64,000 bases of DNA from Escherichia phage vB_EcoM_G17: the sequence record MK327931.1; one strand, written 5' to 3'. This document shows, in pieces, positions 10,738 through 35,821 of the stretch (positions are counted from its first letter, which is position 1; every line of letters starts with the position of its first letter). A program made the position numbers and the translations under genes. The notes below the pieces were generated by a model that was given only the letters and a program-made list of their open reading frames with translations, did no database searches and had not been told where the DNA came from.

Positions 10738-11184
10738 TTAGTTATATGCTGTGAATAGGTCAATGTTTTTATCATCTACACTGATTAATTTACCAGTTGA
10801 ACTAACAAACACAATATTACCACCAGGGGTGATTTGAACACGCTGGTTTACTGAATATTGATCACTAAGGTTATAATTAGCCCATTCAACTACATAACGC
10901 TGTTCAACACCGTTAGTATCATATAGATAAACGTGTGTAACGTCACGCATTTTTAAACGGTCTAACAGTGTAGAGTTGTCCATGAAATCCGATGGTGTAT
11001 TGCTGCGTAATGCAATACCGAACTCACCGATAACAGTACTAATTGTCAGACCGTTTGAAAAACGGCTACAAAGAGTCTTCTCATCAGCAATATGCATCCA
11101 TAAAACATTCTTTACATCAATATCAACAAATTCACAGTTTTCAAAAACCAAACCTACTTTGGAAACTTTACCATTAAATTGCAT
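10738..11184 (-). CDS. hypothetical protein
   Basis: 148-aa ORF. Confidence 0.5.
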   Translation of the reverse strand: MQFNGKVSKVGLVFENCEFVDIDVKNVLWMHIADEKTLCSRFSNGLTISTVIGEFGIALRSNTPSDFMDNSTLLDRLKMRDVTHVYLYDTNGVEQRYVVEWANYNLSDQYSVNQRVQITPGGNIVFVSSTGKLISVDDKNIDLFTAYN

Positions 11185-11629
11185 TAGTAACTCCTATTTT
11201 TTTATATTTTAAAATTAAATCACTCACTGCTTTCATTAGCTTATATGGAATAGCTAACTCTTGAACAGTACTTTCCATAAAATGTTCTTCTTCTGTATCA
11301 TAAAATGTTGAACTACAGTGTTCACAATCATCTATACTATCATAAAAAGAAGACGTAAGTTTATCAACAATGACAGTGATTTGTTTGTCAGTTTTGGTAC
11401 ATCCTACCTGAACGGTTAATCCAATATCATCAGCCTCTACACGAATTATAAACGAATTATTAGTATAGTTCAGCCAACAATCTTCACCAAAGTATACAAC
11501 ACTGTGTTTCTTCTGAAATGAAGTTGCGGTGTTAAGAACACCAATAACAACATCAACTGTTTTTTCATTTAAAATATTAGACATTTTTATTCCTGCTTCG
11601 TATGTTTCGTGAAATCTCAAATATTCCAT
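11174..11629 (-). CDS. EE-x-FFQ C-terminal-motif family paralog
   Basis: C-terminal DTEEEHFMESTVQEL motif shared with about 20 paralogs; annotated start likely too far upstream. Confidence 0.5.
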   Translation of the reverse strand: MEYLRFHETYEAGIKMSNILNEKTVDVVIGVLNTATSFQKKHSVVYFGEDCWLNYTNNSFIIRVEADDIGLTVQVGCTKTDKQITVIVDKLTSSFYDSIDDCEHCSSTFYDTEEEHFMESTVQELAIPYKLMKAVSDLILKYKKIGVTNAI

Positions 11630-11993
11630 TCAACTGCTCAACAGTTAAACCCTGTAAATCGTAAACTGTTGATAGTTGAAAGAACATCTCTGAATCTATA
11701 GTATCATGTTCAATTGGAAGACTCAAGAGGTCTTTATTAATAAAATAATCATATGTTCGAATTGTCAAAGAATCACCAAAGATATCAATGTAAAATTTCG
11801 GAACATTATGTAACGAAACATCTATTAATATGTTTTCAGCATATCTACAAGAAATTTTAGAATTATTTTTATAAGATTGGTATGAAAAATTATAAGGTTC
11901 ATCGACCAATGTGTATGATGAGGTATCACCTTCGGAAAATATTACACCACATTCAATAAGATGTGTTAACGACTTAGGTGGAATTTTTAACAT
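11577..11993 (-). CDS. EE-x-FFQ C-terminal-motif family paralog
   Basis: C-terminal SEMFFQLSTVYDLQGLTVEQL. Confidence 0.55.
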   Translation of the reverse strand: MLKIPPKSLTHLIECGVIFSEGDTSSYTLVDEPYNFSYQSYKNNSKISCRYAENILIDVSLHNVPKFYIDIFGDSLTIRTYDYFINKDLLSLPIEHDTIDSEMFFQLSTVYDLQGLTVEQLNGIFEISRNIRSRNKNV

Positions 11994-11994
11994 T

Positions 11995-12423
11995 TCACTT
12001 CCTATCCTTACTCATATTACTACGGATCACCCCACTAAGAAAACATATTTTCCTTAATGTATCATAACTGATATTTGTAAGATCATGTACAAAATTCAAC
12101 TGCAAGTACATTTCTTCAGTTAATTGATTAAATGTATCATCAACATGAATGTTAGTATGTTCCGTTATATCTATTTCTATATTATTTTCCCAAATATCAA
12201 TGTTAACAGCATAGTCTGATGTATGTCTGGATTGAACTGAAATAAAAATATTATTACTGTTGTATAATGTCTCGGTGTATCCATTCAAAAATGATCCAAC
12301 GACAACATCAAAAATGCCATCTCTAATTGGATTTTTTGTTTCAAACGTATCACTACAAACTTGACGGTATACAATGTCAACATACTTATCAATTAAAGTA
12401 AACAAATAACTCATTGCATTCAC
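11995..12423 (-). CDS. EE-x-FFQ C-terminal-motif family paralog
   Basis: C-terminal TEEMYLQLNFVHDLTNISYDTL. Confidence 0.55.
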   Translation of the reverse strand: MNAMSYLFTLIDKYVDIVYRQVCSDTFETKNPIRDGIFDVVVGSFLNGYTETLYNSNNIFISVQSRHTSDYAVNIDIWENNIEIDITEHTNIHVDDTFNQLTEEMYLQLNFVHDLTNISYDTLRKICFLSGVIRSNMSKDRK

Positions 12424-13133: not shown

Positions 13134-13499
13134 CTAATTGTGGGTTTTAACCAAACGTGAGACAGCTAGTATAGCATTAACCTCATCCAATGTCAACCCA
13201 CCAATGTCATTAATCATTGAGTACTGAAATAGTGATTCTTCAGTGTAATGGTAATCATGAGAAGCAATAAAGATTGCTGGTTTAGAGGCATCCAAAATTA
13301 TCTTTGTCATTGTACTATATATATCAAATTGATATAATAGATTTTCACCTGTATATGCTACGTAGATATTATTTGAATAGGCTGGATGTACCATTGTAAA
13401 ACCATCATAACATAATATTTTTATGTTCGGATCGTCAAAATTGCCTGTATAAAGGTTATTACAAACATCTTGCATTATACGTACTATTAGACTAGTCAT
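13134..13499 (-). CDS. EE-x-FFQ C-terminal-motif family paralog
   Basis: C-terminal TEESLFQYSMINDIGGLTLDEV. Confidence 0.55.
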   Translation of the reverse strand: MTSLIVRIMQDVCNNLYTGNFDDPNIKILCYDGFTMVHPAYSNNIYVAYTGENLLYQFDIYSTMTKIILDASKPAIFIASHDYHYTEESLFQYSMINDIGGLTLDEVNAILAVSRLVKTHN

Positions 13500-13917
13500 T
13501 TAATGGATTTAGTACCTCTTCTGGAATCAACTTTTGAACTTTAAGTATAGCTTTAATGTCCTCAAATGTTAATCCTAATATGTCGTTAAGGAGGCAGTAC
13601 TGGAAGAATTTTTCTTCAGTATCAATATCGTTAACATTCAATTCAATTGATTCATCATCATAATCATAATCTTCATTATCACATTCATAACTTCTGAATA
13701 TAACTTTTTCAAAATACACATCAAATGAATAAAAATGATTATTGAATTCATAACCAAGAAAAATATTAAAACATTTACTCAAATCTGTGGTTTGATTCAA
13801 ATCTGGATCATAGCAAAATACTCTAACTTCACCAATATCTTCTAATTGTACATCATGCAGTGACCATGCGTTGTTTTTTAATACATAGTTCACCATTTTA
13901 ACAATGTTGTATGTCAT
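13492..13917 (-). CDS. EE-x-FFQ C-terminal-motif family paralog
   Basis: C-terminal TEEKFFQYCLLNDILGLTFEDI. Confidence 0.55.
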   Translation of the reverse strand: MTYNIVKMVNYVLKNNAWSLHDVQLEDIGEVRVFCYDPDLNQTTDLSKCFNIFLGYEFNNHFYSFDVYFEKVIFRSYECDNEDYDYDDESIELNVNDIDTEEKFFQYCLLNDILGLTFEDIKAILKVQKLIPEEVLNPLND

Positions 13918-13923
13918 AGTGTA

Positions 13924-14013
<90 letters not shown>

Positions 14014-14025
14014 AGAAGTAAGATA

Positions 14026-14126
<101 letters not shown>

Positions 14127-14178
14127 GCCAAGAGTCGGCATAGGTGCAGCACTACAAAGTTCTTCAAGCTGCTTGGTA

Positions 14179-14210
<32 letters not shown>

Positions 14211-14211
14211 T

Positions 14212-14268
<57 letters not shown>

Positions 14269-14270
14269 TA

Positions 14271-14398
<128 letters not shown>

Positions 14399-14417
14399 GC
14401 ATACTCGAAGTACCTCT

Positions 14418-14455
<38 letters not shown>

Positions 14456-14456
14456 A

Positions 14457-14821
<365 letters not shown>

Positions 14822-14830
14822 TAATACCCG

Positions 14831-15232
14831 CTAGTAGTTTAAGTCTGCGGCGTTGAATACACCAAGTGAAGTCTTACCACGTAGTTTAGGTGAAAGGACA
14901 TACTTTGTCAATTTCTTTTTACCGTACCAGCGATTGAATTCGTCTTCAGTGACATATGGGTTCTGGAAATCGTATTCGCGTTTCTTATGCAGTTCTTTAG
15001 CACGTTCTGCAATCTTGGTTCGTTGGTCTTCTGGAATGTCGAATGTATTGTTACGTTCACACCATTCGTGCTCTAATGCACCCTGAAGAAACTGTTCGGT
15101 TTCTTTGACTAGAGTGATTTTAGTCAAGCCTTTTTCGATGTTCATATAATCATCGACGTATCCATTCCAAATAACAATCTCTGGATTGCCGTCAATTTCT
15201 TGAAGCATTTTGATCAAGTCATTCTTTTTCAT
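14831..15232 (-). CDS. hypothetical protein
   Basis: 133-aa ORF. Confidence 0.5.
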   Translation of the reverse strand: MKKNDLIKMLQEIDGNPEIVIWNGYVDDYMNIEKGLTKITLVKETEQFLQGALEHEWCERNNTFDIPEDQRTKIAERAKELHKKREYDFQNPYVTEDEFNRWYGKKKLTKYVLSPKLRGKTSLGVFNAADLNY

Positions 15233-15240
15233 TTAAATTC

Positions 15241-15498
<258 letters not shown>

Positions 15499-15519
15499 TT
15501 ATACCTCTCATTGTTTATG

Positions 15520-15591
<72 letters not shown>

Positions 15592-15595
15592 TAAT

Positions 15596-16203
<608 letters not shown>

Positions 16204-16254
16204 ATAAACCTCACTATACGTAACTTACACCATATACGTCTGATTGTGGAATTC

Positions 16255-16279
16255 ATTATATCAGTACTGAACTATTTAG

Positions 16280-16283
<4 letters not shown>
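16255..16283 (-). promoter_or_regulatory. sigma-70-type promoter copy B (TTGACT-N17-TATAAT)
   Basis: Consensus -10, near-consensus -35, conserved 17-nt spacer; upstream of gene 15820..16203. Confidence 0.6.
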
Positions 16284-16693
<410 letters not shown>

Positions 16694-16702
16694 CTTTTTT
16701 TT

Positions 16703-16864
<162 letters not shown>

Positions 16865-16868
<4 letters not shown>

Positions 16869-17029
16869 AATCGTACCAGTAGTTCAATTAAGTACATTTC
16901 ATATGCTGGATCGTTGATAAGTTTATCATACAGATGTGGCTCTGAAATGAATTCCCAATGATACTTTAGCCATCTACCGATACCCGAATATCTAAAATTA
17001 ATGTCATTCATCCATTCTTCATGTGTCAT
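16865..17029 (-). CDS. MTHEEWM-family small protein (54 aa)
   Basis: Manual translation MTHEEWMNDINFRYSGIGRWLKYHWEFISEPHLYDKLINDPAYEMYLIELLVRL; tandem with next copy. Confidence 0.5.
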
Positions 17030-17190
17030 AATCGTACCATTATTTCAATAAAGAACCACGGATACACTTCATGATTCATAAGTTTATCGTATTCTGCTGG
17101 GTCTGATATGATTTCCCAATGATACTTTAGCCAACTACCGATACCCGAATATCTAAAATTAATGTCATTCATCCATTCTTCATGCGTCAT
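17026..17190 (-). CDS. MTHEEWM-family small protein (54 aa)
   Basis: Manual translation MTHEEWMNDINFRYSGIGSWLKYHWEIISDPAEYDKLMNHEVYPWFFIEIMVRL; about 75 percent identical to previous copy. Confidence 0.5.
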   Translation of the reverse strand: MTHEEWMNDINFRYSGIGSWLKYHWEIISDPAEYDKLMNHEVYPWFFIEIMVRL

Positions 17191-17213
17191 GGTTTTTAAC
17201 CTTTAATTAAAAT

Positions 17214-17290
17214 TGGCCGAGGTAGAGGGACTTGAACCCCCAACCTAGAGATTAGAATTCTCTTGCACTATCCAATTGTGCTATACCCCG
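17214..17290 (-). tRNA. tRNA-Arg (anticodon UCU)
   Basis: Acceptor CGGGGTA/TACCTCG plus G-CCA, D-arm GCACAATTGGATAGTGC, anticodon stem AGAGA/TCTCT with loop AUUCUAA, T-arm GGGGG-TTCAAGT-CCCTC. Confidence 0.7.
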
Positions 17291-17294
17291 TATT

Positions 17295-17410
<116 letters not shown>

Positions 17411-17443
17411 ATGTTATGTCCCATTATATAATGAATTAATGAT

Positions 17444-17770
17444 TTATGCAAGTGCTTTAGATACACCGACACCAATAATTCCAGTGATATCGATATGGAT
17501 ATTGGCAAGTTGATTACTATCATATGGGTTTGTTTCTGTAATAACCAATGTTGTATCATTGACTAAAACCACAGTACCTTTTACACGATAACCATGTAGT
17601 AGTACTTGAACCTCATCTTCAGGTTTTAATGATTGAATAACTTCAAATAAAGTTGTTTCCATTTTTTGTATTCCTTGTTTAGTTTTGATTATTTGACTTT
17701 CTAAATGCCAGTTCGCATATAAACCAGGGTTTTCTGGTATCCAAAACATATGACCTGAAAAGATTTTCAT
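17444..17770 (-). CDS. hypothetical protein (start uncertain)
   Basis: 108-aa ORF; 5' end overlaps 17679..17879 so an internal Met is the likely start. Confidence 0.4.
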   Translation of the reverse strand: MKIFSGHMFWIPENPGLYANWHLESQIIKTKQGIQKMETTLFEVIQSLKPEDEVQVLLHGYRVKGTVVLVNDTTLVITETNPYDSNQLANIHIDITGIIGVGVSKALA

Positions 17771-17862
17771 CTCTTAATATATCATAATGTACCTGACGAA
17801 TGCCATTCCCAAAGCAGTCATGTTCTTTATGCTGTTTGGACATCCATTCTTCGTGTGTCATT

Positions 17863-17879
<17 letters not shown>
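17679..17879 (-). CDS. MTHEEWM-family small protein
   Basis: Contains MTHEEWMSKQ...WFICELAFRK aligning with other family members. Confidence 0.5.
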
Positions 17880-18198
<319 letters not shown>

Positions 18199-18820: not shown

Positions 18821-19214
18821 TATATTTATCTTTATAAAAATCCATGATTTTAGTCAACAGTACTGCAATCGTATAATCTAAATCAGGATAAAGTAAATTG
18901 TACTGAAATTCTTCCTCAACACTATAGTTAGTGGTACAGTACTGGTAATCTTTATAACCTATTGAAAAATAATTCGGATACAATGTACAACGAAAGCGAT
19001 AAGCTTCATCTGTCATATAATCATTGTATTCAACACAGAAGTATAGTGATTTTGAATTTAATTCGATAAGCTCAACGAATCCATCAGGTAATGAATGGTT
19101 ATAAATTACTGAATCTTCATTAAACCATTCATAGTATTTTTCCAAAAAATCACTAATGGATACATCCAGACTTTGTATAGGTGGAGTTATGATAATTTGA
19201 ACTTCTTTATTCAT
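18810..19214 (-). CDS. EE-x-FFQ C-terminal-motif family paralog (divergent)
   Basis: C-terminal SVEEEFQYNLLYPDLDYTIAVLL. Confidence 0.5.
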   Translation of the reverse strand: MNKEVQIIITPPIQSLDVSISDFLEKYYEWFNEDSVIYNHSLPDGFVELIELNSKSLYFCVEYNDYMTDEAYRFRCTLYPNYFSIGYKDYQYCTTNYSVEEEFQYNLLYPDLDYTIAVLLTKIMDFYKDKYNAA

Positions 19215-19714
19215 TTCGACCCCTTACTATATTTCACGTATGGGTTATCATACAGATCATAACTTTTTTGTGCACGTTCTTTTCGGCGTTCATACATGAT
19301 TCTATCATACTCTTTAGCTTTCTGATTTGCTTCATTATACAATTTTAAAATTAGCAAAAATGCATCAAGATCGGGATAGTTTGCCGGATTGATAGTACTC
19401 AGCATAAATCGTTCTTCTTCAGTTCTAGCTAAGTCAAATTCATACTTAATAGTTTTATACCCACTCCATTTATATATATGCGTTACTTTATTAGTAAGTA
19501 CATTATATTCAACGAAGTCAGTACTACCATCAAGTACACGAGTAATCTTAATAGATGTACCAATGACAATCTGCACAGAACTCATTTCTGAAGTTTTAAA
19601 GTAATAAATGTTATTACGGCGAAGATTAACTTCTCGATCTCCAATGCGAACATGCTTAATAACTTCCATTAATGGTTCTGGGACACCACGAATCGGCATG
19701 TTAGTATTCCTCAA
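19211..19714 (-). CDS. EE-x-FFQ C-terminal-motif family paralog (divergent)
   Basis: ARTEEERFMLSTINPANYPDLDAFLL. Confidence 0.5.
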   Translation of the reverse strand: MRNTNMPIRGVPEPLMEVIKHVRIGDREVNLRRNNIYYFKTSEMSSVQIVIGTSIKITRVLDGSTDFVEYNVLTNKVTHIYKWSGYKTIKYEFDLARTEEERFMLSTINPANYPDLDAFLLILKLYNEANQKAKEYDRIMYERRKERAQKSYDLYDNPYVKYSKGSK

Positions 19715-25089: not shown

Positions 25090-25533
25090 TTACTCCTTAA
25101 AGTAGATATCACGAATTTGTTTAATCATCTCTAACTCTTGAAGTCCTATCATACCAAAGTCTTCTTGTATTGTCAACTGCTGAAAGTACATTTCCTCTAA
25201 ATTATCATAAGGAATATCCACTAATGATAAAGGAACACGTTCACCACGGTATAGCAGATCTTCAACTAAAAGTTTTAAAATCATGATAGAAAATGAATCT
25301 TTTTGGATATGAAATTTGTAAAATGTCTGGTTAGTACTGAACATTGTATTTGATGGATTGAAACCCATTTCAACAAATACTGTATCTTTATCATTATGTG
25401 TGACATATGTACATCTTGAATTCGCAAGAACTTTAGATTTTGGGAAATAAAAATCACCCATCAACTTCTGTCGTTTCCAATCCTCGTATACAACTGGATG
25501 CTTAACCTTCTTCAATTGGTGCAGTACTGTCAT
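25090..25533 (-). CDS. EE-x-FFQ C-terminal-motif family paralog
   Basis: C-terminal NLEEMYFQQLTIQEDFGMIGLQEL. Confidence 0.55.
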   Translation of the reverse strand: MTVLHQLKKVKHPVVYEDWKRQKLMGDFYFPKSKVLANSRCTYVTHNDKDTVFVEMGFNPSNTMFSTNQTFYKFHIQKDSFSIMILKLLVEDLLYRGERVPLSLVDIPYDNLEEMYFQQLTIQEDFGMIGLQELEMIKQIRDIYFKE

Positions 25534-25913
25534 AGTTTTTTCCAGTCCAATGAATCGAAATCGATTTGCTCAGGATTATCAACAGCGACAACTCGTGCAT
25601 TATGAAGAGTTTCAAAGTAGCCGTTCCACGGTGTTCGTAATGGAACTGTCACATCGCCAACTTTAACCAAGAATGAATATTCTGGTGATATTGGGTCAAA
25701 CCACTCTTTTTGTTTAGCATTTTCAACGATAGTTTCGTGTTCTTTAGTATAGCAATTATCTTGCTTCATATAAAACACCCAATGCTCTTTTAGGCACTGT
25801 AAAGCAGCAACTGCTTCCTCTTTAGAAGACCATTGAATATCAATTGTATTAAGAACGTCATAACAATTTTCAGTGTCCCCTGTAGTATAATGTACTTCAA
25901 TGCTGTATTTCAT
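25530..25913 (-). CDS. hypothetical protein
   Basis: 127-aa ORF. Confidence 0.5.
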   Translation of the reverse strand: MKYSIEVHYTTGDTENCYDVLNTIDIQWSSKEEAVAALQCLKEHWVFYMKQDNCYTKEHETIVENAKQKEWFDPISPEYSFLVKVGDVTVPLRTPWNGYFETLHNARVVAVDNPEQIDFDSLDWKKL

Positions 25914-26368
25914 TAATCATCGCCTTTTAGTAATTTACAAATTTCAATCATATGATAATAACATGTATTCCAAAATTGTCCATTAGTACTTCCAACATCA
26001 TGCACAGTACTTTGCTGGAACACATATTCATCGTTGAACATCATTTTAATATCATCAATGTAAAATTCTGGTTTTGAATCATTATTGTATTCAATACTCG
26101 TTTCACCATCTGGATCAAGTGAAATTGATGATATGTCGTGAATTCCTCTCGGATTTGTTGGATAAATTCTCAACGTAAGAGGATAGAAGTCTGGATCGGT
26201 TTCATAGGTATATTCGATTATGTAATAACCATCACCAGTAATTGATTGATATTTAAATGTAGTTTCAATTGAATTTGAGATGTTATATCCCAGTTTCTTT
26301 ATCTCATGTAGATGTGATAATATTTTATGTAAAGATCCTAAAACATGAATCAAATTATCAATTTTCAT
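25913..26368 (-). CDS. EE-x-FFQ C-terminal-motif family paralog
   Basis: C-terminal FNDEYVFQQSTVHDVGS. Confidence 0.55.
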   Translation of the reverse strand: MKIDNLIHVLGSLHKILSHLHEIKKLGYNISNSIETTFKYQSITGDGYYIIEYTYETDPDFYPLTLRIYPTNPRGIHDISSISLDPDGETSIEYNNDSKPEFYIDDIKMMFNDEYVFQQSTVHDVGSTNGQFWNTCYYHMIEICKLLKGDD

Positions 26369-26907
26369 TTACGATCCTTTGAAAAGTTCAGTTTAAAAGT
26401 TTTACCAAATTCCATTGTAGCTTTACCCAGATTGTTAATATTTTCTTTCAACATTTCTTGCATCTTCCTAATACTTTCAATCCAGGCTTCTTCTTCGATA
26501 CGAAGAATTGGTCGCAATCGTTCCTGAATATCGTTAAAACGTGTATTGAGTTCAACCAATGATTCATATGTGAAATCTTTCATATCGATAATAGTACTTC
26601 TTTGAAAGAATTCTTCTTCAGACAAATTACTTAAAATGATTTTATCACGACCAATAGATAATGTCAATTCATCATCTTTATTTTTTTTAATTACAATACT
26701 AATAGGTGTTTTTAATGTAATACAAATATCATGATTATTAAATGTTTCAGTTTGGTTTGACATTCTGAATTGAAGTTTCCCAGATAAAGCATGTACTGGT
26801 GATGGTTTCTTTTTACCAGTAATAACATCTTCCCATGAATCGAGAATATTATTAATAATTTTAACATAAGGAATTGGCATATATGCACCTATGAAAAATC
26901 CACGCAA
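26365..26907 (-). CDS. EE-x-FFQ motif family paralog with C-terminal extension
   Basis: LSEEEFFQRSTIIDMKDFTYESL followed by about 50 extra residues. Confidence 0.55.
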   Translation of the reverse strand: MRGFFIGAYMPIPYVKIINNILDSWEDVITGKKKPSPVHALSGKLQFRMSNQTETFNNHDICITLKTPISIVIKKNKDDELTLSIGRDKIILSNLSEEEFFQRSTIIDMKDFTYESLVELNTRFNDIQERLRPILRIEEEAWIESIRKMQEMLKENINNLGKATMEFGKTFKLNFSKDRK

Positions 26908-28922: not shown

Positions 28923-29363
28923 TTAATTGAACTCTACTTCTGGATAATGATTATAGAACATCTCACGAACTGCGTCAAGATGTTCTTGAAATTGTTTTAT
29001 ATCTTCTAATGATGGTGCATCAATAACAGTACTAAGTTGAAACAACGATTCTTCTGTGTTATATAGTGACATATCAAATGAGTTATTGTTGTCATCAGTT
29101 ATGATATTATCACAAATTTCGTAAGTGTCAATACAAACATCATCAAGTGTTGTATTATCATATACAGTGTATACGAATACAAAAATAAAAGAAGAATGTT
29201 CTTTACCATAACGCGGTGGGTCATATGTCACATAGCATTTGTGGTCAAATGTATCGAGTTCCATAGACACCACCCCAGCTTCACGATATTCATTAGTTTC
29301 ACTGGTAAGATCCGGTATTGATGTTATCGAAAGTAAGTGGAGAAATTTACTTGGATTTAGCAT
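28923..29363 (-). CDS. EE-x-FFQ C-terminal-motif family paralog
   Basis: YNTEESLFQLSTVIDAPSLEDI. Confidence 0.55.
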   Translation of the reverse strand: MLNPSKFLHLLSITSIPDLTSETNEYREAGVVSMELDTFDHKCYVTYDPPRYGKEHSSFIFVFVYTVYDNTTLDDVCIDTYEICDNIITDDNNNSFDMSLYNTEESLFQLSTVIDAPSLEDIKQFQEHLDAVREMFYNHYPEVEFN

Positions 29364-29818
29364 TTCACCACCATTGGATTTTGCGACTGTATATTAAAAA
29401 GGGATAATACAAAAGTACTCAATTTTTCGAAACAATCTACTAATACATTTAACTCATCATAACTAACACCAATTTCACGAATAAGCGATTGTTGAAAGAA
29501 TCCTTCTTCGGTTAACGTTAAACTACTAACCTCAGTTATGTTATAATAACTGTGGGATGTTGTGGTTGATATTAGTTGTATTGCAATCGTATCTGATGTT
29601 GTGTTGTACAGATATAAATATTTTGTTTTTCTTTCCAATGGATCTATACATGAAAGATCGATCATGTCATAGGTTTTTCCAATAAAAATATTACAATCAT
29701 CTGACAATTCACAACAAATGCGTATATGTTCTTTCGGGTCATGAACACGTTGTGTGTCAAATTCACATGACATTGCAATTTCAAAATGATTTTTTATTTC
29801 GTCAACATTCATCTGCAC
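29357..29818 (-). CDS. EE-x-FFQ C-terminal-motif family paralog
   Basis: LTEEGFFQQSLIREIGVSYDEL. Confidence 0.55.
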   Translation of the reverse strand: MQMNVDEIKNHFEIAMSCEFDTQRVHDPKEHIRICCELSDDCNIFIGKTYDMIDLSCIDPLERKTKYLYLYNTTSDTIAIQLISTTTSHSYYNITEVSSLTLTEEGFFQQSLIREIGVSYDELNVLVDCFEKLSTFVLSLFNIQSQNPMVVKC

Positions 29819-30186
29819 CCACCATTAATTCTTATATTTGTATAGTTTAATGCTTTTTTAATAATACCAATTTCTGTAATTCCTATTACATTTTTCTCAA
29901 TCAATGACAATTGGAATAGTTCCTCTTCGGAAATATCAATACTGTGGATTCTTGTACAATAATCGTTGAAGTCATATACATATCGTATTGTATAGTCGTT
30001 TATAGAAACTGATACAATTGCAATCCCATCATGGATGTAAGTTAGTTCATTTGAGTATCTATTAAAAATTAACCTATCTGGTGAACCTATTGGTAGTTGA
30101 AATGTATTTCTAGTATCTTGAACAATAACAAAATCATCATCTATATTTCTACTCAGAACACCCAAAATATCATATATAGTAGTCAT
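29809..30186 (-). CDS. EE-x-FFQ C-terminal-motif family paralog
   Basis: ISEEELFQLSLIEKNVIGITEI. Confidence 0.55.
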   Translation of the reverse strand: MTTIYDILGVLSRNIDDDFVIVQDTRNTFQLPIGSPDRLIFNRYSNELTYIHDGIAIVSVSINDYTIRYVYDFNDYCTRIHSIDISEEELFQLSLIEKNVIGITEIGIIKKALNYTNIRINGGCR

Positions 30187-30187
30187 G

Positions 30188-30592
30188 TTATTCTTTACCT
30201 TCAGCAGTTCTGATAATTTTCATAACTTCTCTGGATAGTGCGTATATTTTTTTATAGTACTCAAATGTAACTGAACCAAAATCATTAATAGTACTAGCCA
30301 TGAAGAACGATTCTTCTGTATATAGTTCATTTGACAAAGCAACCAGTTCTTGGTGAAATTTTGCGTCCTTCCAATAACGAAATTCAAAAACAAATTGTCC
30401 GTCATGACCGACTCTACAACATTCAGAACGATCACTGTCTACACAGCTAAACACAATATCCCTTTCAGAGTCGTACCAGATATTTCCAATATTTGTTTCA
30501 ATAACAGCATAATCAATTTTTTTAGAATTTGGAATTAAACCTTTTTTCACCAGCACTAAACTGGTATTATCAATATCTAGTAAACTTACCAT
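30188..30592 (-). CDS. EE-x-FFQ C-terminal-motif family paralog
   Basis: YTEESFFMASTINDFGSVTFEY. Confidence 0.55.
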   Translation of the reverse strand: MVSLLDIDNTSLVLVKKGLIPNSKKIDYAVIETNIGNIWYDSERDIVFSCVDSDRSECCRVGHDGQFVFEFRYWKDAKFHQELVALSNELYTEESFFMASTINDFGSVTFEYYKKIYALSREVMKIIRTAEGKE

Positions 30593-30593
30593 A

Positions 30594-31004
30594 TCAATTC
30601 CCCATTACTAAAGTGTTTTTAATCTCCAACAATTCACTATACATATTCTTCAATTGTAATATATCTTCAAAAGTAATACCACCAAGATCATCAACTAATG
30701 AACGTTGGAATAAAGATTCACTTGTTTGTAATGTATCTAAATCGGTGATTTTTAATAAAGAACTTGGATTAAGTGTTTCGACTAGTAGTATGTTTTTGTA
30801 TGGTACATATGTGATCTTGATGTTCTTTTTATAATTAATCTTATAAAATCGCATAATTGACGATTCATCACTTAGTTGGATAATTGGGTCGTCTTGATCA
30901 TTAGACCACCATACAGTACTAGTCATATGATTGACGTGGTGGTTCAATTCTGATATGTCCAAATCTAAAAAATATTTTAGTTCATTGTGTAAATCTAAAC
31001 TCAT
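30594..31004 (-). CDS. EE-x-FFQ C-terminal-motif family paralog
   Basis: QTSESLFQRSLVDDLGGITFEDI. Confidence 0.55.
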   Translation of the reverse strand: MSLDLHNELKYFLDLDISELNHHVNHMTSTVWWSNDQDDPIIQLSDESSIMRFYKINYKKNIKITYVPYKNILLVETLNPSSLLKITDLDTLQTSESLFQRSLVDDLGGITFEDILQLKNMYSELLEIKNTLVMGN

Positions 31005-31059
31005 AAATTTATCCTCAATGCAGCATCATCATGTATTGTAGGATAAACCCACAATAATG

Positions 31060-31455
31060 TCAAGATGTGAAATAATTATACCAGTAATATAGTTCTTTTA
31101 ATTCTTCAGTACTGAACAATACTTCTTCTATTGTAGATTGTTGAAAGTGATATTCATCATTTAGATACATAGAAATATTACTATATACTTTCCTATTGTA
31201 TTGACATAAAAAAGAAGTTTTTTGATTAATGTATTCCGTAAATGTTAATTTATCTAACTCAATATCGAATGATAATTTAATAATATGACTATTATCATTT
31301 ACATACATTAGTTTCTTTGAAAAATGATCAATTGTAATATATTCTTTATGAGAGAACTGAAATATATTATTAAATTTATTACCATTTGTGCTTCTAAATT
31401 TTTCAAGGTAATAAGAAAGTGGTTTAATTATTGAAGTTCCAATATTGTTCTTCAT
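31060..31455 (-). CDS. EE-x-FFQ C-terminal-motif family paralog
   Basis: LNDEYHFQQSTIEEVLFSTEEL. Confidence 0.55.
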   Translation of the reverse strand: MKNNIGTSIIKPLSYYLEKFRSTNGNKFNNIFQFSHKEYITIDHFSKKLMYVNDNSHIIKLSFDIELDKLTFTEYINQKTSFLCQYNRKVYSNISMYLNDEYHFQQSTIEEVLFSTEELKELYYWYNYFTS

Positions 31456-32170: not shown

Positions 32171-32223
32171 ATTTCATTTCCTTATGTGATAAAAGCCTCC
32201 ATAATGGAGGCTTTTGTATTTAC

Positions 32224-32805
32224 TTAGAGAGATTCTTCGTATTCAGCAACAATCTCAACCATTTCATTAATGAACTTGATGTGAGAATGTGTCACTGTAC
32301 GGAAGTCGTAAACAAGTGACTGTTGGAAAAATACATCTTCATCAAGAGAACCATCAAAGTTCAAATCAATGTTTTCATCGTCATTGCTTGGTGCAACTTT
32401 AATATTCAGAAGATTTTCATCAATGAACTTGATGTGAGAATGTGTCACTGTACGGAAGTCGTAAACAAGTGACTGTTGGAAAAATACATCTTCATCAAGA
32501 GAACCATCAAAGTTCAAATCAATGTTTTCATCGTCATTGCTTGGTGCAACTTTAATATTCAGAAGATTTTCATCAACTGCAAGTTTTACAACACAACCCA
32601 GTGCAATGGCAAGAACATATGCTGGTTTCTTAGCTTTTTCATTACGGAATGGTGCACGTAGAGCACAAAAAGTACTGCTAATCTCATCATTTGGTTCTTT
32701 GTATTTAACATTGACCATTAGTTCTTCGATTTTGACGCTCTCAATAACACGACCAGTTTCTGGAGCGAAGAAAGAATGTTCACGGATAGTTTGTTCGATA
32801 TTCAT
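32224..32805 (-). CDS. EE-x-FFQ motif family paralog carrying an internal 51-aa tandem duplication
   Basis: Motif LDEDVFFQQSLVYDFRTVTHSHIKFI occurs twice because of a perfect 153-bp direct repeat. Confidence 0.55.
   Translation of the reverse strand: MNIEQTIREHSFFAPETGRVIESVKIEELMVNVKYKEPNDEISSTFCALRAPFRNEKAKKPAYVLAIALGCVVKLAVDENLLNIKVAPSNDDENIDLNFDGSLDEDVFFQQSLVYDFRTVTHSHIKFIDENLLNIKVAPSNDDENIDLNFDGSLDEDVFFQQSLVYDFRTVTHSHIKFINEMVEIVAEYEESL
32271..32576. repeat. perfect 2 x 153-bp tandem direct repeat, in frame within a CDS
   Basis: Identical sequence read at about 32271..32423 and 32424..32576 (repeat phase arbitrary). Confidence 0.85.
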
Positions 32806-32808
32806 ATA

Positions 32809-33003
32809 TTATTCCTTATTTAGATTGCTAAAAATACGAAGATTGCGGTTTGCTTTAAACTGTTTCAAATCACCAAATCTATCATCAACGATGAAAGTTG
32901 CTGATTTCTTTGACTGACATATTGTACAAATCAACATACCTTGTATTGTATACTCAGTTGAGCAATTTGTACAGTACTTTTTTTCATAAAGTTCAGTACT
33001 CAT
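32809..33003 (-). CDS. hypothetical zinc-ribbon protein
   Basis: 64-aa ORF with CTNC...CTIC pairs. Confidence 0.4.
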   Translation of the reverse strand: MSTELYEKKYCTNCSTEYTIQGMLICTICQSKKSATFIVDDRFGDLKQFKANRNLRIFSNLNKE

Positions 33004-33987: not shown

Positions 33988-34400
33988 TAGATTTGTTTTA
34001 TTACATTGCCAAACTTAGTAATTTTATGTCTAAATACTTTTTTATCAACGACAATCCAGTACATGTCCATTTTAACAGTACTGTTATCAGATGGTGTTAG
34101 TAAAGTATCGATGTCATATGTATCAAAGATTTGTCGTTCATATAATCTCCTAATAAAATATTCTCGATTCTCTCTTATATACCCAGATACACAGTTAGTT
34201 GTGGCTTGGTTAGTGAATGAAATCTCACTATTGGACACGCCATTTGCATCACACAAAGGACATATTCCCATGTACTTGGGGGTCGGGTAGGTGTCCAATT
34301 TGTATTTTTCATTACACACCATGTACTGCTGTGGCAATACATCTAATATTATTTCATATTCTTCATCAAACACCTTGAAGCATACCCAACATTTACCCAT
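33981..34400 (-). CDS. hypothetical Cys-rich (zinc-finger-like) protein
   Basis: 139-aa ORF with CWVC, CNEK, CPLC and CVSG cysteine clusters. Confidence 0.45.
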   Translation of the reverse strand: MGKCWVCFKVFDEEYEIILDVLPQQYMVCNEKYKLDTYPTPKYMGICPLCDANGVSNSEISFTNQATTNCVSGYIRENREYFIRRLYERQIFDTYDIDTLLTPSDNSTVKMDMYWIVVDKKVFRHKITKFGNVIKQIYC

Positions 34401-34626
34401 TATAGTTTTCCTTTAACACCGTTCTTATATATTCGAATGTTTTAACAAACCAATCATGTTCGTCGGATACATCTACAACTTTACCACCATATACATAGTA
34501 ATGGTAAAAAGGTAACTTGCTTTTTCTTAATCTTTCGGCTAACTCTGGATTTTGAATTATCTTAGCACAAATAGCATCTTGAATAATAGAAATACAATCA
34601 TCCGTCATTTCAATTCGATCATGCAT
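34393..34626 (-). CDS. hypothetical protein
   Basis: 77-aa ORF. Confidence 0.4.
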   Translation of the reverse strand: MHDRIEMTDDCISIIQDAICAKIIQNPELAERLRKSKLPFYHYYVYGGKVVDVSDEHDWFVKTFEYIRTVLKENYNG

Positions 34627-34883
34627 ATATTGTTAGCGGCTGCTTTTGCTGCTGCACCAGATACTTTTCTAAGGTCATCATGTTTTTGCCCAGTTAAAAA
34701 CCAAAAGTAAAATGTTTCAACTGAAGGGAACCAACCATATGGTTCAAGTGTGAAGCTATGTGAAGAAAAGTTAGATAGATCTCTACCTAACTTAGTTCTA
34801 GCTTTACTATAAATGTTAATGTGTCGGTATCCATCATCAGTAGGGTCAATAAAGTCAAATGACTCTTCTGGAAACTCAAACAT
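34605..34883 (-). CDS. hypothetical protein
   Basis: 92-aa ORF. Confidence 0.4.
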   Translation of the reverse strand: MFEFPEESFDFIDPTDDGYRHINIYSKARTKLGRDLSNFSSHSFTLEPYGWFPSVETFYFWFLTGQKHDDLRKVSGAAAKAAANNICMIELK

Positions 34884-34885
34884 AA

Positions 34886-35122
34886 TTATTCTTCTTCTCC
34901 TGAAGGAGTTCCACGTAGTTTGTCAAAATCAACCCAAATACCATGCTGATTTTTAAATCTACATTTCTCATAGTACCAGCTATAGTCAGTTTCAACACCT
35001 TGTGATATAGATCTAACACTACAATCATACATATTATATAAATGATCCCTGACAATATACGTATTAATCAGAATAACAAACAATACAATAATACCACAGA
35101 CTTTAGGATGATCCATAATCAA
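34886..35122 (-). CDS. hypothetical small membrane protein
   Basis: 78-aa ORF with N-terminal TM helix. Confidence 0.45.
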   Translation of the reverse strand: MIMDHPKVCGIIVLFVILINTYIVRDHLYNMYDCSVRSISQGVETDYSWYYEKCRFKNQHGIWVDFDKLRGTPSGEEE

Positions 35123-35240
35123 ATCTAGAACGGAACTCGTTTCAGTACTGTCAATTTACTACGACCGATGGCAACAGCTTTCAGTACTGCTAATGATACC
35201 AGTAATGAAATAACAAGAACACTCAAATAAATTAGCATAA

Positions 35241-35821
35241 TTAGACTCCTACACCAAAACGTAAAAGGATGTTATTAACAAACACAAAATCAAATGGAGA
35301 CTTTGGTTCAGATACCGAGTACTGAAAAGTTTCAGCGGAGAAACTTTCCCTATTGTGCCATGTTGATGAATCGATTAGTAATTGTTTATCACCAATTGAC
35401 GTTGAATGTAATGGAAAGTGTGCTGATGAATTTATGGAATACGCATTTAGTTTTCCTTGTTCATCTAATGTGATACTAAGATAATATTTTTTCTCAATAT
35501 CAGGAATAAGTTCTTTTGTATACGAATAGATTGAATCAACCCATTCATCATGTACATTTTCTGCACCAATCAGGTGTCCGAATGATAAATTACGTTTAAC
35601 TGGCTTTGATCCTGGTCGAGTTAGAATGAATTGTTTTGTTAAGTAAAAATTATTATGTTTACTTCAATATTAACATTTTTAAAATTCACAACTTTATCAT
35701 ATACATTTCGAAAAACTGTTATATCCCAAGTACTAATTTCATCCATAATACTTATCACCAGTTCTTCTAGTTCTTGGATAAATGGCAAATCATCCTGATG
35801 AAATCTAGTCATGGTTTTCAT
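35241..35821 (-). pseudogene. gene split by a frameshift (60-aa N-terminal ORF plus about 130-codon start-less ORF)
   Basis: Manual translation finds an open frame 35241..about 35650 with no ATG/GTG/TTG start, abutting ORF 35639..35821 in another frame next to an A/T homopolymer run. Confidence 0.4.

What the first reader, a model, noticed from the sequence alone, without database searches (positions are those of the whole stretch)
32271..32576. Perfect 153-bp in-frame tandem duplication inside an EE-x-FFQ family gene
Two identical 153-bp units duplicate 51 aa, including the conserved FFQQSLVYDF motif, within gene 32224..32805. Perfect identity implies a very recent duplication (or an assembly artefact) and shows the motif module is actively amplified, which fits a rapidly evolving family.
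Basis: seen in the sequence. Interest (0 to 1): 0.55.

Follow-up and report, generated by a model that had tools for sequence, protein, structure and literature searches.

The report
One-off tandem duplication in phage gene
A 153-base stretch inside a small gene of unknown function in the giant E. coli phage G17 is present twice in a row; every related phage has it once. It is most likely an ordinary recent copying slip, or possibly a sequencing artefact, and not a sign of an actively amplifying protein module.

Summary
Window 32271-32576 is two identical 153-bp units. They lie in frame in the minus-strand gene 32224-32805 (193 aa) and double a 51-aa acidic segment that carries FFQQSLVYDF.

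The window is Escherichia phage vB_EcoM_G17 (Asteriusvirus). The 193-aa product is exactly QBO61715.1 (G17_00226). All 46 phage records with a homologue, and all 12 homologue clusters among 5.8 billion proteins, carry one unit (142-147 aa). The junction occurs in no other collection searched. Phage Sharanji is identical to the window over 63.8 kb except for this duplication and six 1-nt T-run deletions.

In the single-copy parent the duplicated segment is bounded by an 8/9 direct repeat, TTTCAT(T/C)AA. The chance frequency is about 6e-4, which points to slippage or unequal recombination.

The six deletions lie 1.4-3.1 kb away and frameshift five conserved genes. They look like consensus errors, so an artefact remains a serious rival (about 0.3).

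The "EE-x-FFQ" family is real: at least 10 strong paralogues in the window and 134 representative clusters. None of them has two modules, so "module actively amplified" is not supported. The family's function is unknown. Interest is low.

The parts
32224..32805 (-). Gene G17_00226 (193 aa, hypothetical protein). It is the orthologue of 121Q gene 80 and Sharanji gp261, which are 142 aa. The product is acidic: pI 4.4, against 4.6 for the single-copy form.
   Evidence: ORF list. Exact sequence match to QBO61715.1 of Escherichia phage vB_EcoM_G17. Annotated orthologues. PHROG 23322, unknown function, E=1e-112. pI.
32424..32576 (-). 153-bp unit, promoter-proximal copy. It encodes about residues 78-128, DENLLNIKVAPSNDDENIDLNFDGSLDEDVFFQQSLVYDFRTVTHSHIKFI (codon phase 32422-32574).
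32271..32423 (-). 153-bp unit, distal copy, identical to the first. It encodes about residues 129-179 and runs on into the native C-terminal helix NEMVEIVAEYEESL.
32262..32270 (.). Boundary microhomology TTTCATTAA, on the left flank of the duplicated block. The partner TTTCATCAA is at 32415-32423 (the new junction) and at 32568-32576 (the right end). In the single-copy parent the two 9-mers lie exactly 153 nt apart.
   Evidence: Alignment to 121Q. Repeat list within the parent gene and chance frequency of 5.9e-4 per position for >=8/9 matches at period 153.
32415..32423 (.). New junction (TTTCATCAA|TGAAC). On the coding strand it reads ...HIKFI|DENLL...
   Evidence: The junction 25-mer or 35-mer is absent from IMG/VR, JGI metagenomes and GTDB genomes.
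32189..32217 (.). Palindromic GC-rich hairpin with T-tracts, terminator-like in both directions. It starts 7 nt downstream of the gene's stop codon.
   Evidence: sequence
32812..32817 (-). Shine-Dalgarno-like AAGGAA, 6 nt upstream of the ATG, inside the end of the upstream gene (32809-33003).
   Evidence: Read from the sequence.
34000..35661 (.). Cluster of six 1-nt deletions in short T-runs (window about 34000, 34015, 34133, 34632, 35158, 35661), relative to Sharanji and all other relatives. They frameshift five consecutive genes, the homologues of Sharanji gp266-gp270. They bear on how reliable this stretch of the record is.
   Evidence: The frameshifted products equal G17_00231, G17_00232 and G17_00233, each found on one contig only, while the intact forms are found on hundreds.
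28923..31455 (-). Six adjacent paralogues of the same family (28923-29363, 29357-29812, 29809-30186, 30188-30592, 30594-31004, 31060-31455). Each has one C-terminal EE-x-FFQ-x-S module.
25913..26880 (-). Two further paralogues (25913-26368, 26365-26880).
11577..11993 (-). A further strong paralogue. Weaker members are at 11174-11629, 11995-12414, 13134-13499, 13492-13917, 16280-16633, 19211-19699 and 25090-25533.

Best explanation
This is a genuine, very recent, private in-frame tandem duplication in the sequenced stock of phage vB_EcoM_G17.

How it formed: the ancestral gene (142 aa, as in 121Q gene 80 and Sharanji gp261) carries two imperfect 9-nt direct repeats exactly 153 nt apart, TTTCATTAA and TTTCATCAA on the + strand (TT(A/G)ATGAAA on the coding strand). 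Slipped-strand mispairing during replication, or unequal recombination between sister or concatemeric genomes at these repeats, copied the intervening 153 nt head to tail.

What it produces: a 193-aa protein. An extra 51-aa acidic segment is inserted ahead of the native module. That segment comprises an acidic loop, the FFQQSLVYDF helix and the first turns of the C-terminal helix. The second copy keeps its normal C-terminal context.

What is shown: the structure of the repeat, the single-copy state everywhere else, and the microhomology at the boundaries.

What is inferred: the slippage mechanism, the event happening in vivo, and tolerance of the insertion. Nothing indicates selection for the duplication.

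The gene is one of at least 10-17 small, mostly acidic paralogues in a co-directional array of small genes. I infer, without having tested it, that they are early host-directed accessory proteins. In that reading the shared C-terminal module docks onto a common partner or mediates oligomerisation, and the variable N-terminal part gives specificity.
For: - Perfect 2 x 153 nt, in frame.
- The parent allele with one copy is present in Sharanji, which is identical to the window in all other respects around the site, in 121Q and in 19 further records at >=99% identity.
- All 46 phage records with a homologue are single-copy by tblastn.
- All 12 homologue clusters are 142-147 aa, and the identical single-copy protein is seen on 111 contigs.
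- The boundaries coincide with an 8/9 direct repeat whose chance frequency at this spacing is 5.9e-4 per position. An arbitrary assembly mis-join would not be expected to land there.
- In frame has a prior of only 1/3.
- The 193-aa product is in GenBank as QBO61715.1, from a genome assembled at 203.6x coverage.
- The gene has its own RBS and a terminator-like hairpin, so it looks expressed.
Against: - Only one record carries the duplication. No reads could be inspected.
- The same record has six 1-nt T-run deletions 1.4-3.1 kb away. They break five genes that are intact in every relative.
- The window differs from Sharanji by 7 indels and 0 substitutions in 63.8 kb. That pattern is typical of sequence error, so this stretch of the record is demonstrably unreliable.
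- If the duplication and the errors are independent, their closeness is a coincidence with a probability of about 0.05-0.1.
- The AlphaFold models are of low confidence (mean pLDDT 60.7 for the single-copy form, 50.2 for the duplicated form). Tolerance of the insertion is therefore not demonstrated.
Confidence: 0.6

Rival explanations
1. Sequencing or assembly artefact of the G17 GenBank record. The stretch 32.2-35.7 kb was poorly resolved, for example a low-coverage or contig-end region of a long-read assembly, or a manual join made when the contig was circularised and re-linearised. On this view both the 153-bp duplication and the six homopolymer deletions are errors, and the real phage has the 142-aa gene.
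For: - All seven differences from the otherwise identical Sharanji record fall within 3.4 kb of a 64-kb window. All are indels, none is a substitution, and six are 1-nt homopolymer deletions.
- The deletions frameshift five consecutive genes that are intact in every relative and on hundreds of contigs.
- The paper says the genomes were sequenced by PacBio RSII/HGAP3 or by MiSeq/SPAdes and were manually linearised and rearranged.
- The duplication is seen in no other public sequence.
- The last four deletions are spaced about 500 nt apart (499, 526, 503). This could reflect chunk-wise consensus calling; that link is from memory and untested.
Against: - The duplication endpoints sit on an 8/9 microhomology (chance about 6e-4). 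Mis-joins and graph artefacts do not predict this: de Bruijn artefacts need exact k-mers of >=21 nt and give k-sized repeats.
- The unit is in frame.
- There is no error between 32577 and 33999, so the duplication is not embedded in the error cluster.
- Mean coverage was 203.6x.
Confidence: 0.3
2. One error-prone break-repair episode produced everything. On this view a double-strand break in this region was repaired by recombination-dependent (break-induced-like) synthesis. That synthesis switched template at a microhomology, giving the duplication, and left strand-biased -1 frameshifts in homopolymer runs. All seven changes would then be real and have a single origin.
For: - Seven indels cluster within 3.4 kb, against none in the other 60 kb.
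- All six deletions are in T-runs of the same strand, although the region has 59 T-runs and 49 A-runs of >=3 nt (p about 0.03).
- The duplication has a microhomology junction.
- From established knowledge: break-induced replication, and DinB-dependent break repair in E. coli, give -1 homopolymer frameshifts and microhomology-mediated duplications.
Against: - It requires five conserved genes to be knocked out at once in a viable, plaque-purified phage.
- There are no accompanying substitutions.
- No such footprint has been documented in these phages. Sequence error explains the deletions more simply.
Confidence: 0.06
3. Adaptive or programmed amplification of the FFQ module. On this view the module is a unit that the family expands to gain avidity or new specificity, and this duplication is a selected example.
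For: - The duplicated unit includes the family's only conserved motif, and the frame is kept.
- The family is a large lineage-specific expansion.
Against: - None of about 17 paralogues in the window and none of 134 representative family clusters has two modules. The multi-stretch hits P0022 and P0085 are unrelated repeat proteins, and P0059, P0102 and P0146 have a single motif.
- Orthologue length is conserved at 142-147 aa.
- The unit boundaries follow a DNA microhomology and not a domain boundary: they cut the predicted C-terminal helix after its first seven residues.
Confidence: 0.04

Closest known systems
Spontaneous tandem duplications at short direct repeats (slipped-strand mispairing or illegitimate recombination), as classically described for phage T4 rII duplications and bacterial genes (from established knowledge)
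   Same: A head-to-tail copy with no spacer. A single-copy parent allele is found in relatives. A short imperfect direct repeat lies exactly at both ends of the duplicated segment. The two copies are perfectly identical, as expected for a recent and unstable event.
   Different: It is only 153 nt and intragenic, and it was seen once in a database record. The T4 duplications were mostly kb-sized and were selected genetically. No reversion or selection data exist for this one.
Residual indel errors and end-join duplications in long-read (PacBio RSII/HGAP) phage assemblies (from established knowledge)
   Same: The difference from the nearest genome consists of indels only. There are 1-nt homopolymer deletions that break conserved ORFs, and the anomalies are clustered locally.
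   Different: A perfect 153-nt duplication bounded by microhomology is not a typical product of such errors. The technology used for G17 is not stated for that phage.
Gene 'accordion' amplification in large DNA viruses (poxvirus K3L; from established knowledge)
   Same: A recent tandem copy-number gain in a large dsDNA virus, within an accessory gene that may be host-directed.
   Different: Accordions amplify whole genes under demonstrated selection. Here part of one gene is doubled, with no evidence of selection and no copy-number variation among isolates.
PHROG 23322 and related PHROGs 27549, 17453, 21500, 24321, 24941, 24510 (all 'unknown function')
   Same: The protein matches PHROG 23322 over its whole single-copy length (E=1e-112), and its module matches the sister PHROGs.
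   Different: The profile is 142 positions long and is matched in two stretches because of the extra 51 aa. No function is attached to any of these families.

Membership tests
Microhomology-mediated (slippage-type) tandem duplication | Two adjacent direct copies with no intervening sequence | tested here: met
   The 153-nt units are identical, at 32271-32423 and 32424-32576.
Microhomology-mediated (slippage-type) tandem duplication | The single-copy ancestral allele exists in close relatives | tested here: met
   Sharanji, 121Q and 19 further records at >=99% identity have one copy. All 46 phage records with a homologue and all 12 protein clusters are single-copy.
Microhomology-mediated (slippage-type) tandem duplication | A short direct repeat in the parent at both ends of the duplicated segment, beyond chance | tested here: met
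   TTTCATTAA and TTTCATCAA lie 153 nt apart. The genome-wide frequency of >=8/9 matches at this period is 5.9e-4.
Microhomology-mediated (slippage-type) tandem duplication | The duplication is present in the DNA molecules (reads or PCR) | not testable with these tools
   No reads are available. The 193-aa product is recorded only from the one NCBI G17 record.
Assembly or consensus artefact | Other evident sequence errors in the immediate neighbourhood | tested here: met
   Six 1-nt T-run deletions at 34000-35661 frameshift five conserved genes.
Assembly or consensus artefact | Repeat length or boundaries explained by the assembler (k-mer-sized overlap, arbitrary join point) | tested here: not met
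   153 nt is not a k-mer size that was used (55). The boundaries lie on a microhomology.
Assembly or consensus artefact | The junction is absent from the raw reads | not testable with these tools
EE-x-FFQ-x-S C-terminal-module paralogue family (PHROG 23322 and relatives) | A C-terminal module EE-x-(F/L)F-Q-x-S-(T/L)-(V/I)-x-D followed by an amphipathic helix, in a protein of about 110-220 aa | tested here: met
   A local HMM scores 63 and 47 bits for the two copies; paralogues score 59-74 bits. Nearly invariant E, E, F, Q and S across 134 representatives. PHROG hits.
   127 of 134 representatives have exactly one core motif and none has a true second module. Every paralogue in the window has one module. 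Orthologues are 142-147 aa.

The most novel reading that the evidence does not exclude
The duplication and the six same-strand -1 homopolymer deletions are all real and are the footprint of a single error-prone, recombination-dependent (break-induced-like) repair tract in a jumbo phage genome. On this reading a microhomology template switch produced the duplication, and a trail of frameshifts followed along about 3 kb of newly synthesised DNA. It would be a natural example in a phage of the mutation clusters known from break repair in E. coli and yeast.
Probability: 0.06. Interest if true: 0.55.

Novelty: new member of a known kind. Interest (0 to 1): 0.15.

Why it matters
Taken at face value it is one more example of a slippage-type tandem duplication, in a hypothetical gene of one phage isolate, and it has little wider consequence.

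Its practical value is as a quality flag. The G17 record (MK327931) carries, within 3.4 kb, a private duplication and six frameshifting deletions, so G17_00226 and G17_00231 to G17_00233 should not be taken as natural protein variants without re-sequencing. The remaining affected genes of the gp266-gp270 stretch fall under the same caution, although their G17 locus tags were not looked up.

It also shows that the EE-x-FFQ family is a sizeable, undescribed family of small acidic jumbo-phage proteins with a fixed one-module architecture. That family is the more interesting target for experiments.

Tried and rejected
- Search for the duplication elsewhere. I searched for the junction in IMG/VR, JGI metagenomes and GTDB genomes. 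I searched for the region in complete E. coli genomes and in plasmids. I ran tblastn against 50,697 phage records and did exact-product look-ups. Nothing outside the G17 record turned up.
- Function by sequence. Pfam, NCBIfam and the PDB gave no significant hit. PHROGs gave only 'unknown function' families. A profile search with the short module in the word-indexed database returned only four fragments.
- Function by structure. The AlphaFold models were of low confidence. Foldseek against BFVD found only orthologues, including the 193-aa G17 entry A0A482GHD2. Foldseek against the PDB found nothing (best E=0.03, TM<=0.23, XLF; not credible).
- Module amplification in the family. This was tested and rejected.
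- A beta-clamp-binding motif. Q-x-S-(L/T)-(V/I) faintly recalls QL[SD]LF, but this is a resemblance from memory only. The preferred residues differ and the segment is predicted to be helical, so I did not pursue it.
- CMSTMSU's split gene. I checked it as a possible second 193-aa form. It is a frameshifted single copy.
- Collapse of a true duplication in Sharanji's short-read assembly (2x151-nt reads, k<=55). This cannot be excluded for Sharanji alone. It would not change the single-copy state of the other relatives.

Full report
**1. The observation**

Window 32271-32423 and 32424-32576 are identical. The period-153 identity run is 155 nt long (32269-32423), so the repeated block is 32269-32576. 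Tandem Repeats Finder reports 32262-32576, period 153, 2.1 copies, 99% matches. It is the only perfect tandem repeat in the 64 kb.

The block lies in the minus-strand ORF 32224-32805 (193 aa). Since 153 = 3 x 51, the frame is kept. Residues 78-128 (DENLLNIKVAPSNDDENIDLNFDGSLDEDVFFQQSLVYDFRTVTHSHIKFI) recur as residues 129-179.

**2. Where the window comes from**

- The first 32,423 nt of the window are 100.000% identical to Escherichia phage Sharanji OR545507.1 from position 79778. This places the window in the genus Asteriusvirus, the 121Q/PBECO4-like jumbo coliphages.
- The Sharanji record has a 142-aa gene (gp261) at this site.
- Exact-sequence look-ups identify the window's own proteins as those of Escherichia phage vB_EcoM_G17. 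The 193-aa product is QBO61715.1 (G17_00226), and two neighbouring unusual ORFs are G17_00231 and G17_00233.
- G17 (MK327931) is 370,817 bp including a 20,649-bp terminal repeat. It has 203.6x coverage, came from pig manure in Hameln in 2016, and is held as DSM 103244 (Korf et al. 2019, PMC6563267).
- The paper states that the genomes were sequenced either on PacBio RSII (HGAP3) or on MiSeq (SPAdes, k=55), but not which was used for G17.
- G17 itself is not in the phage collection I could search, which is why only relatives were hit.

**3. The duplication is private to this record**

- In 21 records at >=99% identity the matched span is 153 nt shorter than the query, and the junction splits into two pieces.
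- The alignment to 121Q shows a clean 153-nt gap.
- tblastn finds a homologue in 46 phage records from Escherichia, Salmonella, Klebsiella and Erwinia phages. All are single-copy.
- Among 5.8 billion proteins, the 12 homologue clusters are 142-147 aa, with no indel in the module. The identical single-copy protein is recorded on 111 contigs. The 193-aa form occurs on one contig, that of G17.
- The junction sequence is absent from IMG/VR, JGI metagenomes and GTDB genomes.

**4. How it arose**

In the single-copy parent, the segment that became duplicated is bounded by TTTCATTAA on one side and ends with TTTCATCAA, exactly 153 nt apart. The new junction reads TTTCATCAA|TGAAC.

Across the parental 64 kb, only 5.9e-4 of positions show >=8/9 matches at a spacing of 153 nt. 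The endpoints are therefore not arbitrary. This is the signature of slipped-strand mispairing or unequal recombination at a short direct repeat, a well-known route to tandem duplications. A de Bruijn-graph artefact would need exact repeats of k-mer length. A mis-trimmed contig join would have arbitrary ends.

**5. Why an artefact is still a serious rival**

- After the duplication, the window differs from Sharanji only by six 1-nt deletions, all in short T-runs. They are at about 34000, 34015, 34133, 34632, 35158 and 35661.
- Every relative has the longer runs: their matched spans are 1907-1908 nt for the 1901-nt query.
- The deletions frameshift five consecutive genes, the homologues of Sharanji gp266-gp270. 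The resulting odd products exist only in the G17 record, whereas the intact forms are found on hundreds of contigs.
- The total difference is thus seven indels and no substitution in 63.8 kb, all within 3.4 kb. Indel-only, homopolymer-only differences are what consensus errors look like, so this stretch of the record is unreliable.
- All six deletions are on the same strand (p about 0.03, given 59 T-runs against 49 A-runs). The last four are about 500 nt apart. I cannot explain these two details with confidence.

Weighing the evidence:

- The microhomology and the in-frame length favour a real event.
- The closeness to evident errors favours an artefact.
- I put a real, ordinary slippage duplication at about 0.6 and an artefact at about 0.3.
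- About 0.06 goes to the reading that all seven changes are real and stem from one error-prone repair tract.
- About 0.04 goes to adaptive module amplification.

**6. The gene and its family**

The gene has a Shine-Dalgarno-like AAGGAA 6 nt upstream of its ATG, and a palindromic terminator-like hairpin (32189-32217) just after its stop codon.

- Ten ORFs in the window match a module HMM at 59-106 bits, and about seven more match weakly. All are on the minus strand between 11 and 33 kb, are 110-170 aa long, and carry the module once, at the C-terminus.
- A profile of the module finds 136 representative clusters among 1.84 billion proteins. Two of them (P0022, P0085) are unrelated repeat proteins.
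- The other 134 have a median length of 140 aa. The motif lies about 41 residues from the C-terminus. E, E, F, Q and S are nearly invariant.
- None has a genuine second module.
- Most window paralogues are acidic, with pI 4.1-5.

There is no Pfam, NCBIfam or PDB match, and the PHROGs hit are all "unknown function".

The AlphaFold models are weak: mean pLDDT 60.7 for the 142-aa form and 50.2 for the 193-aa form. Only an N-terminal helix plus three strands (residues 1-50) and the C-terminal helix are reasonably confident. The duplicated segment is mostly low-confidence. The fold searches gave nothing credible beyond orthologues.

Function is therefore inferred only from context. These are small acidic proteins in a long co-directional array of small genes, which is typical of early, host-directed accessory genes. 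I propose that the shared C-terminal module is a common docking or oligomerisation element. This has not been tested.

**7. Verdict on the interpretation**

- "Very recent duplication or assembly artefact" is right.
- "Shows the motif module is actively amplified" is not supported. The family expanded by whole-gene duplication, and module number is fixed at one everywhere else.
- The unit boundaries follow a DNA microhomology and cut the predicted C-terminal helix. They do not follow a domain boundary.

**8. Novelty and interest**

The event is a new instance of a well-known kind of mutation, or else an error, in a hypothetical gene of one deposited genome. It has not been discussed in the papers that mention G17. 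Interest is low (0.15).

The useful by-products are:

- a quality warning for about 3.4 kb of MK327931;
- the near-identity of Sharanji and G17;
- the delineation of an undescribed family of small acidic jumbo-phage proteins.

Noticed in passing
window 34000-35661: Six 1-nt deletions in short T-runs relative to Sharanji and all other relatives. They frameshift five consecutive conserved genes. The products match G17_00231, G17_00232 and G17_00233, each recorded only once. All six are on the same strand, and the last four are about 500 nt apart. They are probably consensus errors in the G17 record.
   Followed up: yes
whole window (1-64000) against OR545507.1 79778-143630: Phage Sharanji (chicken faeces, India) and this G17 window (pig manure, Germany, 2016) are identical at every aligned base over 63.8 kb; they differ only by seven indels. 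Other Asteriusvirus isolates differ by 1-3%. The Sharanji laboratory bought another phage (Goslar) from DSMZ, which also holds G17 (PMC11895373). A common origin is possible but untested.
   Followed up: partly
window 11174-32805, minus strand: An undescribed family of small, mostly acidic proteins with a C-terminal EE-x-FFQ-x-S-(T/L)-(V/I)-x-D module. There are at least 10 strong and about 7 weak paralogues in this window and 134 representative clusters in 1.84 billion proteins. No Pfam, NCBIfam or PDB relative was found.
   Followed up: partly
window 16704-17190: Three tandem genes of 54 aa each (period about 161 nt, 84% identity between copies), also present in Sharanji (gp218-gp220). This is an older whole-gene tandem multiplication.
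   Followed up: no
L004 (CMSTMSU MH494197.1 215743-216169): In phage CMSTMSU (an UNVERIFIED_ORG record) the orthologue of this gene is annotated as two overlapping ORFs and aligns in two pieces. This suggests a frameshift, and so another low-quality record at this locus.
   Followed up: partly
window 13934-18176: A cluster of seven tRNA genes (Thr, Asn, Met, Ser x2, Arg, Gly, as annotated in Sharanji) is interspersed with small ORFs, some of them weak members of the same family.
   Followed up: no
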